Shown piece after piece: positions 33,001 through 39,000 of a DNA stretch of 41,119 nt. Made by a program: the position numbers. The stretch's first letter is position 1. Every line of letters begins with the position of its first letter. The stretch is from a virus: the UHGV virus genome UHGV-0135785; one strand, written 5' to 3'.

Positions 33001-36000
33001 CTCCTGACGAAGAATTGCTGGATGCCTGGGGTGACGTCAGGTATATCGCTTATAAATGGCTGAACGCTGTCGCTATAAAGGGGGAAGAAGGGGCGAGGAT
33101 ACATCATGGTGTAATCGCGCAGCAACTTCGTGATGTTCTTATTTCTCACGGACTCATGGAAGAAGAAAGCACAACATGCCGCTATGCCTTTCTTTGCTAT
33201 GACGATTATCCCGCAGTATATGATGACGTCATTACTGGCCAAAGGGAAATGCCGCTGACTGATAATGACGGGAGCATCATTGTTGATGAGGATGATAATC
33301 CAGTGATGGTAATGGAAGACATCATTGAGCGCGTTGAAATAACGCCAGCAGGATCTAGATGGGGGGTCAGACCTGATCTCTTATTCTATATCGAGGCGGC
33401 ATGGCAGCGCAGAGAAATAGAAAGAATAAAAGCTAGGTTAGACTTAATAGAAGGGAAGCACTAAATGTTTCGTTGGCGTCAAAAATATGAACTGCTCACA
33501 TAAAGAAGTAAGTACATTGGCAAAAAACATTGACGTCAACGAAATTAAATATAAAAATTTAAATGCTTTTTAATGACAAGAAAAGTAACTAGTGGTAAAA
33601 TAACGTAGGATACTAATATGTCAAGACTCAAGACTCAAGACTCAAGACTCAAGACTCGTTTTCCGTTGATGATAATGGGTCAGGTAATATTTTTGTATGT
33701 GGAGATCTTGTAAATAGCAAAGAGAATAAAGTTCAGTTCAATGGAAACAATAACAAACTTATTATAGAAGATGATGTTGAGTGTCGATGGCTTACCGTAA
33801 TATTTAGGGGTGATAATAATTACGTAAGAATACATAAAAACAGTAAGATTAAAGGTGATATTGTCGCAACAAAAGGTTCAAAAGTTATTATCGGTAGAAG
33901 AACGACAATAGGTGCAGGTTTTGAAGTCGTCACTGATAAGTGCAATGTTACAATTGGCCATGACTGCATGATAGCAAGAGATGTTATTTTGCGTGCATCA
34001 GATGGGCATCCTATATTTGATATTCATAGCAAAAAAAGGATTAATTGGGCAAAAGATATCATTATATCTAGTTACGTATGGGTAGGGAGAAATGTCTCTA
34101 TAATGAAAGGGGTATCTGTTGGAAGCGGATCTGTCATTGGGTATGGGAGTATTGTAACTAAAGATGTGCCATCTATGTGTGCAGCAGCCGGTAATCCAGC
34201 AAAAATAATAAAAAGAAATATAATATGGGCAAGAACGGATAAAGCGGAGCTAATTAGTGATGACAAGAGATGCTCCAGCTATCATGCGAAGCTCACGCAA
34301 TAAATATAAAACATCATGCAGACATATTACCAATATTAATATAAGGTAATAAAAATATAATTTACAAAAAAGCCCGTTGGAAGCGACGGGCATTAACCGC
34401 GGTAATGGATAAATTATTAATGTTTTTAGATTGTGAACGATATCATATTGTGCGGAAGTAGTGAAGTAACCATGTAGAATGATTGTTTCATAGCCTATGA
34501 GACACACAAGGCTTTGTGCTCTTCGATAGTTGTTAAGGCGGATCACTCTACCTTCTCATCAAGCCAATCCGCCCACCACTGCATCATTTCTCTGCGCTTA
34601 TCGAGATACTGAGCATGGTTGTAAATCCCACGCACAGATCCGCCGTTGGCATGTGCCAGTTGCACTTCAATAGCGTCAGCAGGCCATTCGTGCTCGTTCA
34701 TAATCGTGCTGAATTCATGCCTGAATCCGTGACCGCTTTCCAGACCTTCATAGCCGATTTGTTTGATCACAAGCAATACCGCGTTCTCGCAGATTGGTTT
34801 CTTCTTATCGTTGCGCCCGGCAAAAACAAACTCTGAGACTGGTTTGGTGATTGAGCTTAGCGTAGTAAGAAGTTCAACCACTTGGTCTGACATAGGAACC
34901 ACATGAATTTTGCGTCCCTTCATCACACTGGCGTCGATGGTGATAATCCTGTTTTCAAAATCGACGCTCTTCCATTGCATGGAACGAAGCTCTTTCGTTC
35001 TTAGGGCTGTGTAGCGTAAGACTTTGGTCGCAATGAGCGATACGATACTTCCTGAAAATGTTGCCAGTGCTTTGTTGAATGCAGGGATCTGGTCTGCTGG
35101 AAGAAACGGGAAGTTCTTCTTGCGGTATCCTTTCATGGCGTCTGCAAGGTCAGGTGCCGGGTTATATTTAGCCCTTCCGGTGACAATAGCGTAACGAAAA
35201 ACCTCGCCGCATCTTCTGCGGGCTTTATTGGCTCGTTCCATTGCACCGCGATCTTCAAATCTGCGGATTACTTCCAGCAGTTGCATCGGCTCAATATCCT
35301 GAATCTCAAGACCGCCGATGATAGGTAAAATGTCGTCATCAAACATTTTTGCAAGTTCAGTCGCATACCCTACTGACCATACTTGCTTCTTGTGCTCGTA
35401 CCATTCTTTGTAAATCGCACTAAAGGAATTGTTGTTAGACGAAGCCTTTTTCGCCTTTACCGGATCGATGCCAACCGAGATGTCTTTCTTCGCGGTCCAT
35501 GCTTTATCTCTTGCCTCCTGCAAAGTCATTAGCGGATATTTTCCTACGGTCAGTATTTTTTCCTTACCGTCAATCTTGTAGCGAAGCTGCCATACCTTTT
35601 TCCCTGATACAGGGACATAAAGATACAGGCCATTACCGTCGAGAAGGCGGTATGGTTTTTCTTTCGGCTTTGCTGCTTCAATCTGCTTAACGGTGAGCAT
35701 GGGTAAAAATCCGGTGGGTAAAATTATTTTATCCACTTTTTACCCGTCATGGAGTGCGGCTGTCAACGATCTGACGCGAACCATTACGAACTGTGAATCT
35801 ACGGAAGGCTTGATATTCAGGGGATTTTGCGGACTGTTACGGATGGGAGCGAACTGATAAATGGTGTCCCCTGCAGACATCTACTTGAAGCGGCAGGGGA
35901 TTGATTGGAATGGTGTTTTTTAGATGTGAAAAATATTTTACCCGCTATTTTACCCATTGGCGCGGCTTAAGAGCTTATTTTTGAATTCACAATGGTCACG

Positions 36001-39000
36001 ATATAACCATCTTGCTCGCCCGTGGATAACTTTGGCTTTAGGCAGGTCCCCGGACTTAATCCGGTCATAGATGAAGGTTTTACCAAAGCCAGTATCAGCC
36101 ATGATGAATTTCAAATCAACCAGTGAATCAGGCTGTAGTTCGTGTTGCATGAGTGCTATCTCCAAATAGGGAATCGAACCTGCAAATCAGGCAATAAAAA
36201 ACCGCCATCAGGCGGCTTGGTGTTCTTTCAGTTCTTCAATTCGAATATTGGTTACGTCTGCATGTGCTATCTGCGCCCATATCATCCAGTGGTCATAGCA
36301 GTCATTGATGTTCTCTGCTTCGATAACTCTGTTGAATGGTTCTCCATTCCATTCACCTGTGACTCGGAAGTGCATTTATCATCTCCATAAAACAAAACCC
36401 GCCGTAGCGAGTTCAGATAAAAGAAATCCCCGCGAATGCGAGGATTGTTATTCATTGCTGATATTCACCTTTATCGCGAACACCTTTACCGGTTTATCGC
36501 CGAAGTGCGGATGTGTGATTGTCTTGATTTCATATCCGTCATACGGAACATCAATTCTACGGCTGGAATCGTCGCGCTTCGGATATCCCTTTGTGATAAT
36601 CAGGCGGTCATACTCGCGGAACATAATTCGCTTATTCCAGTAGTCATTACACAGGCGATACTCTTCCGTTTTCTCTCCGCGAATCATGGCATCGAAGTAT
36701 TCACCTTTAACGGCAAGTTGCAGGTTAGCCACGACCTTCCTCCTTTGGCTTGTGAATTTGTATCGTCATGCCGCTTTGAGTGGTGACTACAACGACAGAA
36801 CCAGGCTGAAGACTGTTAAGATTGAATGCTTCGTAAAACGAAGCCAAGGCCAGCGCTTTTTTATTCTTTCGGTTCCACCAACGCCATCCATTGCTACAGG
36901 CTACACTGACAATCCACTGCCCACTCCTGTAAGCCATATAAAACCAGATGAGCAAAACCTGAATGAATGCTATCCAGTCAATAATCGTATATTTCGCGAA
37001 GGAGTCCATCACTTCACCTCCTGCGGCGGTTCCGGTAGCCGCATCCAGTCGGTTACATTACGACTCTGTGTTTCGAAAAATTCATCACCATTGCGGACAA
37101 TATCGAAAAACTCTCCGTCTCGATATTGCGCATAAAGAACGAATGCGCCATCACATAAAATAATTACGTGCTGACCATCATCTGGCATTCGCTCACTACA
37201 GCTTATCCAACCATCCGGAGTTACCGGATAGTTGCCCGACAGCTCGTTCAACTTGTAAGTTTGGCTTACAGGTTCGGCTTCCAGTTCTGCAATGCGCTTC
37301 TCTGCAGCTTCCAGCTCAACGCGCAGCCTCCCAACCGTTAGCGCAATATCCTCGTTCTCCTGGTCGCGGCGTTTGATGTATTGCTGGTTTCTTTCCCGTT
37401 CATCCAGCAGTGCCAGCACGGTTTCTGGTCCGGTCAGAAATTTGAAGGCGTTGAGCGCATCAATATCCACACCGTAATCTTTAAGTTCCTGTTCACTTAA
37501 CAAATCATCATCAACTGGCAACATTAGCAGGCGATCCATTGCCGGAATTGCACGCTCTGCCTCCTCACGCAGTGCCTGATAGTCAATCTTGCTCACTGGT
37601 TGCCTCCTTTGCGAAGCTGGGCAGCAAAGTCAACTAACCACTCAGTCATTTCAACCTTCCCTACCAGGTCTGAACCAGGGTGCATACAGCAATCACTCTG
37701 CGCCGCTTTGAAATCCTTATACTCATATTCTTGGACCACCAGATTTTTTGCAGCTTCTATAGCAGCATCCACCCCCTGCGCCCGCACTTCAGACAGGAAA
37801 GCATCAGTGGCTGGAATGGGCTTTTGTGGTGATATAGCAATGCGAATTGTCTCAAGGTCTGGATCTGTTTCCGCTGCTGGCACCTTGATATAACCCATCT
37901 GCACCCCATTCATGATGAACCTGCGACGGTCATCACATATCGCCTTTAGCCCCGCACTCTCCGCTGCCAGCGCCGCGCACTTGGCCTCAAGGTTATCAAT
38001 CGTGATTCCAGCAGAACGACACTCCCGCAACGCCGTTTCCAGTTTTGATTCAAGCTCACCGAACTTACGCACCAGATATTCAGCGTTTGTTTCGTTAACC
38101 TTTAAATCTCGTGGGATGCATTTACCTTTCAGAAATCCATCCATCTCAATTAGTGACATTTGTTTCATTTCTTCCCACTCCGCCACATCGCATTCAGATA
38201 TTTGTTTTGATTTACTGAAGGAAAAGAATTTCTCTTAAGCAATTCCTCTCTCGATGGCATTGGCTTTACTCGTTGGCGAATAATCATTTCTGCCGGAAGA
38301 ATGCCGGGATTGTATGCAAGTCCTCTCATGATTTACTCTCCACTAACTGGTCAATAGCCATGCTAAGTGACATACCTAAAGTTTCGATATGCTGCTGAAT
38401 ATCCTGTAGCGTCTGCGCCTGAGATAACAGGATTTCACGGTTGCATAACTCTTTAACCAGATGCTCAAACTTGCTGTAATAACCGATACGACTTAGTGTT
38501 TCTTTCCCTGCATTCTCGCCTTCTTTGATAATTCCTCTTTCACTAAGAATCAGGTCGTGTTTGGTTCCGGTAATAACGTATTTTCCGAGGTCGATGTTTA
38601 GCTTCATTGTTAATTACTCCATGTTAATTTATTCGTATGCCTGCTCTTTCTTCATCGAGTTTTTTTAGCTTGTATCGCATAGCTCTTACTGAATAAATTG
38701 AGCGGCAGGTTGCAATTGCTATTTCTTCTGCGGAGAACTTACCGAAAAGTGATACTTCGGCTCTTGTCCAGCGTCTTCCACGAAGTCGGCTAACAATGTC
38801 AGCGCCAATCCTTGTTGCTTTTGCCATTACTGCTTTTTCAGTCCTTTCCAGTTTTTCAGCGATAACTTGAACTGGCATTGTCGCCGCTACTTCGCGCAAG
38901 AAATCGACTTCCCATTTCTCCCATGGAGTCTTTTTCATAGTCGATACCGTTATTTGATAAGAAGTGAAGGTTTCCCAACCTTGAGTTGAGCGCCGGGGAT

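What the first reader, a model, noticed from the sequence alone, without database searches (positions are those of the whole stretch)
35700..36190. Two fragments matching consecutive parts of tRNA-Arg (argW) flank xis; candidate attP with 8-mer arm motifs
On the minus strand, 36186..36166 reads ATTTGCAGGTTCGATTCCCT (T-arm-like) and 35876..35862 reads CTGCAGGGGACACCA (acceptor 3' end with CCA). As I recall argW, these segments are contiguous in the tRNA, but here about 290 bp containing the AlpA-like xis gene separate them. The int-xis interval also carries five copies of TTTTACCC/GGGTAAAA (35701, 35716, 35738, 35936, 35948). If 35862..35876 is the attP core, integration would place int and xis at opposite prophage ends. 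No tRNA-like sequence was found between neuO and int.
Basis: partly seen in the sequence, partly recalled or inferred. Interest (0 to 1): 0.55.

Follow-up and report, generated by a model that had tools for sequence, protein, structure and literature searches.

The report
Known phage attP plus conserved tRNA-like motif
The site where this K1-capsule phage inserts into the E. coli argW tRNA gene is real but already well characterised; the second tRNA-like piece, in front of the excision gene, is not part of that site but a short conserved motif that may help control excision.

Summary
Both tRNA-like pieces are real and exact. On the minus strand, 35876..35861 (CTGCAGGGGACACCAT) is the 3' end of argW plus one base. 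36185..36170 (TTGCAGGTTCGATTCC) is the 16 nt just before it in the tRNA.

The first piece is the attP core of the IntS/TorI recombination module of KplE1, HK620, Sf6, CUS-3 and Kapi1. Integrated prophages break exactly there, and 938 E. coli genomes carry the empty attB. The five GGGTAAAA copies are the known IntS arm-type sites. Int and xis (TorI) ending up at opposite prophage ends is published. This part is correct and already known.

The second piece is not a displaced half of attP, and it is not the crossover, although the CUS-3 GenBank record labels it "att core". Relatives keep their own T-loop remnant beside the core. A 13-mer, CAGGTTCGATTCC, sits about 29 nt upstream of torI between an intrinsic terminator and the ribosome-binding site. 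It is conserved across six TorI clusters in several genera while its flanks diverge. It is tandemly duplicated in some lineages and nearly free of polymorphism within E. coli. It contains GTTCG, the published TorI recognition pentamer.

My best inference, untested, is that it is an operator for TorI and/or IntS that controls RDF (excisionase) expression.

The parts
34543..35700 (-). Integrase gene (intS type, 385 aa). The real start is the ATG at 35700, not the upstream GTG at 35736.
   Evidence: ORF list. Pfam domains Arm-DNA-bind_3, Phage_int_M and Phage_integrase. About 97% nt identity to int of HK620/Sf6/CUS-3 and intS of K-12.
35701..35745 (.). P' arm with three IntS arm-type sites: GGGTAAAA at 35701-35708 (+), 35716-35723 (+) and 35738-35745 (-). 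They overlap the -10 of the int promoter (TAAAAA, minus 35742..35737; -35 TTGACA, minus 35766..35761).
   Evidence: 5 copies in the window, 1.0 expected. HK620 annotates the same stretches as attP repeats and as the 'prophage excision' promoter. PMC2951348 describes the P' arm-type sites (conserved TAAA), and the TTGACA / TAaAAa promoter whose -10 box the P'1 mutation affects.
35767..35854 (-). Five TorI (RDF) sites of the P' arm: GTTCG 35854..35850, GTCCG 35834..35830, GTTCG 35791..35787, GTTCG 35781..35777, GATCG 35771..35767.
   Evidence: Pentamer positions. PMC2951348 reports five TorI sites on attL in blocks I1;2 and I3;4;5, mutated at GTTCG, GATCG and GTCCG.
35861..35876 (-). attP core CTGCAGGGGACACCAT, which is the last 15 nt of argW plus T. 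My reading of it is C = GATGTC, 7-bp overlap TGCAGGG, C' = GACACC.
   Evidence: attP/attL/attR/attB table. (prophage homology breaks at 35860-35876). (empty attB in 938 genomes). HK620 and Sf6 annotate 'attP core' at the same place. KplE1 has the same 16-nt core (PMC2951348). The C/O/C' partition is inference from the sequence.
35893..35916 (-). Core-like repeats in the P arm. An inverted copy of the core's left part lies at 35893-35900 (TCCCCTGC on the minus strand; it pairs with 35867-35874). A direct copy of its right part, ACACCATT, lies at 35909-35916.
   Evidence: I20, D12. Relatives show compensatory changes: L021 has CCCCTACA...TGTAGGGG and L022 has TCCCTGCATA...TATGCAGGGA.
35936..35955 (-). 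P arm with two IntS arm-type sites: GGGTAAAA at 35955..35948 and 35943..35936. They overlap the stop codon of xis.
   Evidence: HK620 attP repeat 1441-1463. Conserved in all relatives.
35950..36150 (-). xis gene, encoding TorI (recombination directionality factor, 66 aa).
   Evidence: PDB 1Z4H, E 6.6e-43. (100% identity to E. coli loci). RefSeq annotates the matching gene as torI.
36160..36169 (-). Spacer and Shine-Dalgarno sequence of xis. GGAG is at 36163..36160. It is preceded by ATTTG, a degenerate second TorI-like pentamer 12 nt after the first.
   Evidence: The same position reads GTTCG or GTCCG in L014, L114, L121, L130 and L134.
36170..36185 (-). T-arm-like fragment TTGCAGGTTCGATTCC, identical to 16 nt of argW. 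The conserved unit is the 13-mer CAGGTTCGATTCC (36182..36170), which contains the TorI pentamer GTTCG (36179..36175).
   Evidence: Conservation across genera. Low polymorphism. Annotated as 'attL/attR core' in CUS-3 CP000711. Lies inside the putative 'pI' promoter of HK620 and Sf6.
36182..36194 (-). TTGCCTGATTTGC, annotated in HK620 as a cII-binding site of a putative integration promoter (TTGC-N5-TTGC).
   Evidence: The spacing is N5, not the canonical N6. The repeats are absent in other genera.
36192..36218 (-). Intrinsic terminator (AAGCCGCCTGATGGCGGTTT followed by a T run) that ends the upstream 55-aa ORF transcript, directly 5' of the motif.
   Evidence: The same segment is annotated as the 'tL4 terminator' in HK022. 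A terminator precedes the motif in all E. coli upstream contexts.

Best explanation
The int-xis interval is the attP of the IntS/TorI (KplE1/HK620/Sf6/CUS-3-type) recombination module.

Shown: IntS exchanges strands within the 16-bp core 35861-35876, which is identical to the 3' end of argW. Integration gives argW-core-P'-int at the left prophage end and xis-P-core-dsdC at the right end. This is shown by the junction sequences. The five GGGTAAAA copies (three in P', two in P) match the IntS arm-type sites and the five GTTCG-type pentamers in P' match the TorI sites. Binding at those sites is taken from the literature on the near-identical KplE1 and HK620 sites, not tested here.

Shown: the upstream T-arm-like piece (36170-36185) takes no part in strand exchange and is not a left half of attP split off by xis.

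Shown by comparative data: it is a separately conserved 13-nt element, CAGGTTCGATTCC. It lies between an intrinsic terminator and the torI ribosome-binding site.

Inferred, roughly 40% for TorI specifically: the element is a DNA operator bound by the recombination proteins. TorI would bind through its GTTCG pentamer and/or IntS through the GATTCC half-site that forms the B side of attB. Binding would give feedback on RDF expression, by a transcription roadblock or by occlusion just upstream of the RBS.

Its identity with the argW T arm would follow from these proteins having evolved to recognise the invariant T-loop side of attB/attL. The three extra matching bases (TTG) in the E. coli lineage are probably chance.
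For: attP:
- Homology of integrated prophages to the window breaks at 35860-35876. One side runs into tRNA-Arg and the other into torI/dsdC.
- The attP, attL, attR and attB sequences fit a Campbell exchange at CTGCAGGGGACACCAT.
- The empty attB is present at 100% identity in 938 of 5426 complete E. coli genomes.
- HK620 and Sf6 annotations and the KplE1 and Kapi1 papers give the same core, arm sites and TorI pentamers.

The motif is not part of attP:
- Non-E. coli relatives carry (G/A)TTCGATGTNTGCAGGGGACACCAT, so attP has its own T-loop remnant next to the core.
- torI lies inside the prophage next to dsdC.
- Empty sites lack torI.

The motif is under selection:
- It is present in 6 of 16 TorI protein clusters (E. 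coli, Enterobacter, Citrobacter, Serratia, Pantoea, Edwardsiella and others).
- GTTCG sits at -29, -28 or -26 from the ATG in nearly all lineages, while the flanks cannot be aligned.
- GTTCGATT is 91-100% conserved per column (six of eight columns at 97% or more), against 40-77% for most flank columns.
- Among 87 E. coli-type loci it carries 0.38 minor alleles per site. torI third-codon positions carry 3.8 and the 5' flank 3.15.

Operator-like features:
- It contains the published TorI pentamer.
- It is tandemly duplicated with a 16-nt period in L132, L133, L135 and L129.
- L130 and L131 read CAGTTCGATTTCCAGTCCGGAGG, two pentamers of the P'-arm type.
- A second G/A-T-T/C-CG pentamer abuts the Shine-Dalgarno sequence in several lineages.

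An RNA role is not supported. RNAalifold gives only a 4-bp stem at -0.58 kcal/mol with no compensatory pairs.
Against: - No binding or expression data exist for this element. The papers I could read place TorI sites only on attL.
- The 3' half of the motif (ATTCC) is conserved but is not shared by the P'-arm TorI sites, which read GTTCGC/T. The binding protein could therefore be IntS or something else.
- The second pentamer is degenerate in this window (ATTTG).
- The element is absent from 10 more distant TorI clusters and from one close relative (L018). It is therefore not essential to the module.
- No sigma-70 promoter that it could control is detectable.
- The sampled lineages are related, so the conservation counts are not independent.
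Confidence: 0.62

Rival explanations
1. The T-arm fragment and the core were once one contiguous block of about 31 bp of argW homology in attP. The xis gene plus the P arm (about 290 bp) was inserted into it, and the fragment is now a neutral relic.
For: The two pieces abut exactly in argW, sharing one C. Both lie on the same strand, in tRNA order.
Against: - Relatives have a separate T-loop remnant (TTCGATGT) directly beside the core. The left part of attP is therefore already accounted for.
- The motif is conserved across genera at a fixed distance from the xis ATG while its flanks diverge. It is duplicated in tandem in some lineages and is poor in polymorphism.
- Only 13 of the 16 nt are conserved outside the E. 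coli lineage.
Confidence: 0.07
2. TTGCAGGTTCGATTCC is the real att core of CUS-3-type phages, as annotated in GenBank CP000711. Recombination would occur in the T arm, and xis would lie outside the phage.
For: The CUS-3 record starts and ends with this 16-mer, labelled attL core and attR core. In a lysogen it is a 16-bp direct repeat flanking everything except xis.
Against: - Phage-form genomes (this window; the HK620 and Sf6 records, both circular) carry xis-P-core-P'-int contiguously.
- Empty argW sites have no torI between argW and dsdC.
- In a K1 strain the prophage homology runs through torI to the CTGCAGGGGACACCAT core next to dsdC.
- KplE1 is described as bordered by this duplicated 16-nt core and can be excised in vivo (PMC2951348).
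Confidence: 0.02
3. The fragment is part of a cII-activated integration promoter ('pI') for xis/int, as annotated in HK620 and Sf6. TTGC repeats would flank the -35, and the T-arm-like bases would merely be the promoter spacer.
For: HK620 annotates promoter 1664-1702 and a cII site TTGCCTGATTTGC. Sf6 annotates pI at the same place. The phage group encodes a CII-family protein.
Against: - The repeats are spaced N5, not the N6 of lambda/P22 cII sites (my knowledge of the lambda consensus TTGCN6TTGC).
- No acceptable -10 element exists, and the consensus scan finds no promoter there.
- The TTGC repeats are missing in the other genera, while the 13-mer that would be 'spacer' is the conserved part.
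- A promoter upstream of xis would express the excisionase during integration.
Confidence: 0.12
4. The conserved motif acts at the RNA level, either as a T-arm mimic in the xis 5' UTR or as part of a cis-antisense sRNA covering the xis ribosome-binding site.
For: In Edwardsiella and Pantoea stewartii the motif sits in a perfect hairpin, GACAGG-TTCGATTC-CCTGTC. There is a sub-threshold Rfam match to sRNA STnc130 on the + strand at 36100-36227 (27 bits against 55 needed).
Against: The hairpin is absent in most lineages, including this window (GCAGG...CCCTA). RNAalifold finds only a 4-bp UUCC:GGAG stem at -0.58 kcal/mol with no covariation. The STnc130 consensus differs exactly over the motif.
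Confidence: 0.05
5. The match to argW is chance resemblance through the near-universal T-loop sequence.
For: GGTTCGAxTCC is common to many tRNAs. The last three matching bases (TTG) are specific to the E. coli lineage.
Against: 1.9e-5 exact 16-mers are expected in the window. The motif recurs upstream of torI homologues in many genera.
Confidence: 0.01

Closest known systems
KplE1 (CPS-53) IntS/TorI recombination module of E. coli K-12, and its copies in phages HK620, Sf6, CUS-3 and Kapi1
   Same: - The same 16-nt core, CTGCAGGGGACACCAT, in argW.
- The same order: xis, P arm, core, P' arm, int.
- The same arm-type sites (2 + 3).
- The same five TorI pentamers.
- The int promoter overlaps the P' arm.
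- About 97% nt identity.
   Different: Nothing essential differs. This copy sits in a K1-specific phage carrying endosialidase and neuO, and it is in the unrecombined (attP) form.
Lambda attP/Int/Xis
   Same: - A heterobivalent tyrosine integrase with arm-type and core-type sites.
- A small winged-helix RDF that binds direct repeats in one arm.
- A Campbell-type exchange.
   Different: - Here attP lies between int and xis, so the two genes are separated by integration and are transcribed independently (PMC2951348).
- The RDF sites are on the int-proximal arm (attL).
- The target is a tRNA gene.
Repression by RDFs at their DNA sites: TorI repressing PintS (read, PMC2951348), and RDFs that double as transcriptional repressors such as P2 Cox and P4 Vis (from memory, not checked here)
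   Same: An RDF recognition sequence placed next to a recombination-gene start. TorI is already shown to repress PintS through sites I3-I5.
   Different: No operator in front of torI itself has been described in the papers I could read. Binding to the T-arm-like motif is untested.
Partial tRNA copies at prophage ends (att duplications)
   Same: An exact match to part of the target tRNA, in the tRNA's orientation.
   Different: It does not lie at a junction, it is not involved in the crossover, and it is conserved for its own sake upstream of a gene.

Membership tests
IntS/TorI (KplE1/HK620/Sf6-type) recombination module | 16-nt core CTGCAGGGGACACCAT shared by attP and the 3' end of argW | tested here: met
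   PMC2951348.
IntS/TorI (KplE1/HK620/Sf6-type) recombination module | attP lies between int and the RDF gene, and prophage junctions fall at the core | tested here: met
   PMC8787464.
IntS/TorI (KplE1/HK620/Sf6-type) recombination module | Tyrosine integrase with an N-terminal arm-binding domain, closely related to IntS | tested here: met
   Pfam domains Arm-DNA-bind_3, Phage_int_M and Phage_integrase. About 97% nt identity to intS over its 5' ~200 nt, the part covered by the query.
IntS/TorI (KplE1/HK620/Sf6-type) recombination module | The RDF is TorI | tested here: met
   PDB 1Z4H, E 6.6e-43 over 66/66 residues. 100% identity to E. coli loci.
IntS/TorI (KplE1/HK620/Sf6-type) recombination module | Arm-type sites (TAAA-containing repeats, 3 in P' and 2 in P) and five TorI pentamers in P' | tested here: met
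   Sequence only. Binding is taken from PMC2951348.
IntS/TorI (KplE1/HK620/Sf6-type) recombination module | Integration and excision activity of this particular copy | not testable with these tools
   Needs in vivo or in vitro recombination assays.
tRNA gene or tRNA pseudogene | Cloverleaf recognised by ARAGORN or the Rfam tRNA model | tested here: not met
   0 genes. No tRNA match even at E<=10. The fragment has only the 5' T-stem strand and the loop.
AlpA family (Pfam Phage_AlpA) | Match to the Pfam model | tested here: not met
   No Pfam family at E<=1e-3 for the xis product.
Lambda-type cII-activated promoter | TTGC-N6-TTGC flanking a -35, with a usable -10 element | tested here: not met
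   Spacing is N5. No promoter in the scan. The repeats are not conserved outside the E. coli lineage.
TorI (RDF) binding site / operator | GTTCG, GTCCG or GATCG pentamer in an 8-nt site | tested here: met
   GTTCG at 36179..36175. Pentamers defined in PMC2951348.
TorI (RDF) binding site / operator | Several phased sites that allow cooperative binding | tested here: inconclusive
   The second pentamer, 12 nt downstream, is canonical in L014, L114, L121, L130 and L134 but is ATTTG here. Tandem 16-nt duplicates occur in L129, L132, L133 and L135.
TorI (RDF) binding site / operator | Bound by TorI, with an effect on torI expression | not testable with these tools
   Needs EMSA or footprinting and reporter fusions.

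The most novel reading that the evidence does not exclude
The excisionase gene of argW-integrating phages carries, as its own operator, a copy of the T arm of the target tRNA gene. TorI (and/or IntS) would recognise the invariant T-loop DNA (GTTCGATTCC) in two places: beside the core in attB/attL, and in front of torI. Assembly of the excision complex would then be wired directly to feedback on RDF synthesis. More generally, RDF specificity in this family would have been tuned to the tRNA T loop.
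Probability: 0.3. Interest if true: 0.5.

Novelty: already known. Interest (0 to 1): 0.3.

Why it matters
The attP itself adds nothing new. It confirms that this K1 phage uses the well-studied IntS/TorI module.

Two things are useful.

1. The GenBank record of the reference phage CUS-3 places its att cores on the T-arm repeat and so leaves out torI and the true attR. Anyone who uses that record for prophage boundaries or excision primers will be misled.
2. The KplE1 work (PMC2951348) concludes that excision is controlled through expression of the RDF gene and that this control is not understood. A 13-nt element directly upstream of torI is conserved across Enterobacterales and contains the TorI recognition pentamer. 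It is a concrete candidate for that control and is cheap to test.

Tried and rejected
- **tRNA or RNA-family membership.** ARAGORN and Rfam found nothing.
- **Conserved RNA structure around the motif.** RNAalifold gave only a 4-bp stem with no covariation.
- **A sigma-70 promoter for xis.** None in the consensus scan. I inspected -35/-10 candidates by eye across genera and found none conserved.
- **'xis inserted into a tRNA-homology block'.** I considered aberrant-excision, tandem-lysogen and secondary-site scenarios. I dropped them once relatives showed a separate T-loop remnant next to the core.
- **A pseudo-core downstream of the motif.** CTATTTGGAGATAG does not resemble the core.
- **Co-variation of the motif's 5' flank with the host tRNA T stem.** Lineages with ACAGG or CCAGG still have the core TGCAGGG, which implies a GCAGG/CCTGC T stem. 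There is therefore no co-variation.
- **Literature.**
  - The CUS-3 paper (PMC1951898) is not held.
  - No held paper quotes the 16-mer in a phage context.
  - A search for torI transcription control gave nothing useful.
- **First IMG/VR scan with the window's TorI.** It returned only 100%-identical E. coli loci. Divergent queries were needed.

Full report
**What the window is.** The region belongs to a P22-like, CUS-3/Sf6/HK620-type temperate phage. Gene order is:
- endosialidase tailspike, 30519-33464 (+);
- neuO-type hexapeptide acyltransferase, about 33617-34303 (+);
- an IntS-type integrase, 34543-35700 (-);
- a 250-bp non-coding interval;
- a 66-aa xis gene, 35950-36150 (-);
- early-left genes.

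The xis product is TorI, matching PDB 1Z4H at E 6.6e-43.

**Checking the observation.**
- K-12 argW was read from a RefSeq chromosome. It is GTCCTCTTAGTTAAATGGATATAACGAGCCCCTCCTAAGGGCTAATTGCAGGTTCGATTCCTGCAGGGGACACCA.
- Minus strand 35876..35862 is its last 15 nt. With the next T (35861) this makes the 16-mer CTGCAGGGGACACCAT.
- Minus strand 36185..36170, TTGCAGGTTCGATTCC, is the 16 nt that precede it in the tRNA, sharing one C.
- Each occurs once in the window.
- 1.9e-5 exact 16-mers are expected by chance.
- GGGTAAAA occurs five times in 41 kb, all between 35701 and 35955. About 1.0 is expected, and 0 of 100 shuffles reached five.
- ARAGORN finds no tRNA gene in the window, and Rfam finds none in 33400-36700.

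**The core is the attP, and this is known.**
- I searched 35500-36500 against 5,426 complete E. coli genomes. 3,187 genomes hold part of it.
- In nearly all of them the match splits at 35860-35876. The int side runs into 'tRNA-Arg' and the xis side into torI.
- In K-12 the order is argW-core-intS on one side and torI-core-dsdC on the other. The right end of a K1 APEC prophage is the same.
- Aligned, attP, attL, attR and attB share exactly CTGCAGGGGACACCAT and swap flanks as a Campbell exchange predicts.
- The reconstructed empty attB (argW followed by CCTTGTG...) exists at 100% identity in 938 genomes.
- GenBank HK620 and Sf6 annotate 'attP core' at the homologous position. HK620 also annotates the GGGTAAAA-containing stretches as attP repeats.
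- PMC2951348 states that KplE1 is bordered by this 16-nt duplication. It describes IntS arm-type sites with a conserved TAAA, and five TorI sites on attL recognised through GTTCG, GATCG and GTCCG. It reports an intS promoter (TTGACA / TAaAAa) that overlaps the attL region where the recombination proteins bind.
- All of these elements are present here: pentamers at 35854, 35834, 35791, 35781 and 35771, and the promoter at 35766..35737.
- PMC8787464 says explicitly that in Sf6, HK620, KplE1 and Kapi1 attP lies between int and xis, so the two genes end up at opposite prophage ends.

**The upstream T-arm-like piece is not the crossover.**
- The CUS-3 record CP000711 begins and ends with TTGCAGGTTCGATTCC, labelled 'attL core' and 'attR core'. 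The record stops there, with no torI.
- That assignment cannot be the recombination site, for four reasons:
  - torI and the P arm lie inside the prophage next to dsdC in a K1 strain;
  - empty sites have no torI;
  - phage-form genomes carry xis-P-core-P'-int contiguously;
  - KplE1, bordered by the CTGCAGGGGACACCAT core, can be excised in vivo.
- In a lysogen the T arm of argW and this piece simply form a second, fortuitous-looking 16-bp direct repeat around everything except xis.

**It is not a split-off half of attP either.**
- The exact abutment in the tRNA suggested that xis had been inserted into a longer block of tRNA homology.
- Relatives from other genera argue against this. Their P arm reads (G/A)TTCGATGT(A/C/T)TGCAGGGGACACCAT.
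- So attP keeps its own degenerate T-loop remnant directly beside the core. I read this as the left core-type site, C = GATGTC, against C' = GACACC around a 7-bp overlap TGCAGGG. This partition is my inference.
- The piece upstream of xis is therefore a second copy.

**It is a conserved element.**
- I collected torI homologues from GTDB genomes and IMG/VR. This gave 227 gene records (some IMG/VR contigs were fetched more than once), 49 protein variants and 16 clusters at 92% identity.
- In six clusters (E. coli, Enterobacter, Citrobacter, Serratia, Pantoea, Edwardsiella and others, down to 74% protein identity) the sequence CAG-GTTCGATT-(C/T)CC lies upstream of the gene.
- In nearly all lineages GTTCG sits 29, 28 or 26 nt before the ATG and about 6 nt before the Shine-Dalgarno sequence. 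In Serratia the spacer to the Shine-Dalgarno sequence is longer.
- The sequences on either side cannot be aligned between genera.
- Per-column conservation is 91-100% over GTTCGATT (six of eight columns at 97% or more), against 40-77% for most flank columns.
- Only 13 nt are shared. The TTG that extends the match to 16 nt is specific to the E. coli lineage, and with about eight lineages to choose from it is not significant.
- In L132, L133, L135 and L129 the element is tandemly duplicated with a 16-nt period.
- Among 87 E. coli-type loci the 13-mer carries only rare variants: 0.38 minor alleles per site. torI third-codon positions carry 3.8 and the 5' flank 3.15.
- An intrinsic terminator always lies immediately 5' of it.
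- The element is missing in ten more distant clusters and in one close relative, L018, where the terminator tail runs straight into the Shine-Dalgarno sequence. It is therefore an accessory element.

**What it probably does.**
- An RNA role is not supported. The T stem is incomplete in most lineages, and RNAalifold finds only a 4-bp UUCC:GGAG stem at -0.58 kcal/mol with no compensatory changes.
- A promoter is not evident.
- The 'pI/cII' annotation in HK620 and Sf6 rests on TTGC-N5-TTGC repeats. These have non-canonical spacing and are not conserved outside the E. coli lineage, whereas the supposed spacer is the conserved part.
- Several features point to a protein-binding site on DNA:
  - the motif contains GTTCG, the pentamer through which TorI binds attL;
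  - L130 and L131 read CAGTTCGATTTCCAGTCCGGAGG, two pentamers of exactly the P'-arm type;
  - several lineages have a second GTTCG or GTCCG abutting the Shine-Dalgarno sequence;
  - tandem duplication is typical of such sites.
- The conserved 3' half (GATTCC) equals the B-side half-site of attB, so IntS is an alternative or additional ligand.
- I therefore propose, as inference, an operator through which the recombination proteins feed back on RDF synthesis.
- The same sequence in the argW T arm sits beside the core in attL. Its GTTCG lies 31 nt, about three helical turns, from TorI site I1. This may explain why the operator looks like the tRNA.
- PMC2951348 names control of RDF expression as the unresolved switch for excision in this module. 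That gives the element some practical interest.

**Verdict.**
- Observation: confirmed.
- Interpretation: supported.
- The attP, its arm sites and the int/xis separation are already known.
- The T-arm-like piece is real, is mis-annotated as an att core in the CUS-3 record, and is best seen as a conserved cis-element in front of torI whose function (operator) is plausible but untested.
- Overall interest is modest.

Noticed in passing
window 33617-33657 (neuO 5' end) and 33968-34303: neuO starts at the ATG at 33617, followed by 5 copies of the heptanucleotide AAGACTC (TRF: period 7, 5.3 copies). With 5 copies the ATG is out of frame with the acyltransferase body, so this copy appears phase-OFF. 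Only a 111-aa C-terminal ORF is listed.
   Followed up: partly
L003/L008 (GenBank CP000711, CUS-3), record positions 1-16 and 40192-40207: The reference CUS-3 record labels the T-arm repeat TTGCAGGTTCGATTCC as attL core and attR core, and ends before torI and the true attR. By the junction evidence here, the prophage extends about 310 bp further, to CTGCAGGGGACACCAT next to dsdC.
   Followed up: yes
window 35867-35874 / 35893-35900; L021, L022, L114: The P arm holds an inverted copy of the left part of the core (CCCCTGC, 18 nt, GCAGGGG). Relatives keep the pairing through compensatory changes: Rouxiella has CCCCTACA...TGTAGGGG and Edwardsiella has TCCCTGCATA...TATGCAGGGA. This suggests an extra core-type Int site or a cruciform.
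   Followed up: partly
window 35909-35916, 35818-35826 and 35894-35902: Further short copies of core pieces lie in the arms. ACACCATT is in the P arm. AATCCCCTG occurs once in each arm, on the minus strand. Their function is unknown.
   Followed up: no
window 35740-35880 (-): A 46-aa ORF starts at the ATG inside GATGTCTGCAGG and runs across the core and the P' arm. HK620 annotates it as gene hkaB, Sf6 as gene 17, and Kapi1 may annotate it as hyp25 (described as lying between int and attP; identity not checked). Integration would cut off its start. It is probably conserved because of the att sites, not as a gene.
   Followed up: no
NZ_CP082824.1 1,518,631-1,559,631 (L009), and 13 other complete E. 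coli genomes: In 14 chromosomes int-attP-torI is contiguous, as in this window. L009 shows a whole CUS-3-like prophage followed by an inverted second copy of nin genes. This looks like a tandem or rearranged lysogen at the argW locus, or an assembly problem.
   Followed up: partly
window 36100-36227 (+): Sub-threshold Rfam match to Enterobacterial sRNA STnc130 (27.3 bits; gathering score 55). It is antisense to the xis start and RBS and ends at the bidirectional hairpin. The family consensus differs exactly over the T-arm motif. It may mean that related modules make an antisense RNA.
   Followed up: partly
L132, L133, L135, L129 (IMG/VR contigs, Pantoea-like TorI): Two tandem copies of the motif lie upstream of torI: CAGGTTCGATTCCCGT CAGGTTCGATTCCCAT CGGAG.
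   Followed up: partly
L029 (Proteus hauseri), tRNA-Arg(CCT) at 4495-4567 (-): A TorI homologue here is followed by sequence that, by eye, looks like the reverse complement of an integrase C-terminus, with tRNA-Arg(CCT) beyond. If so, xis and int are convergent, which is a different module layout from the one in the window.
   Followed up: no
L144, L034 downstream of the core: In some chromosomes the bacterial side of attR is occupied by another P4-like integrase gene. Its upstream region also contains GGTTCGATT. This points to tandem islands at argW.
   Followed up: no
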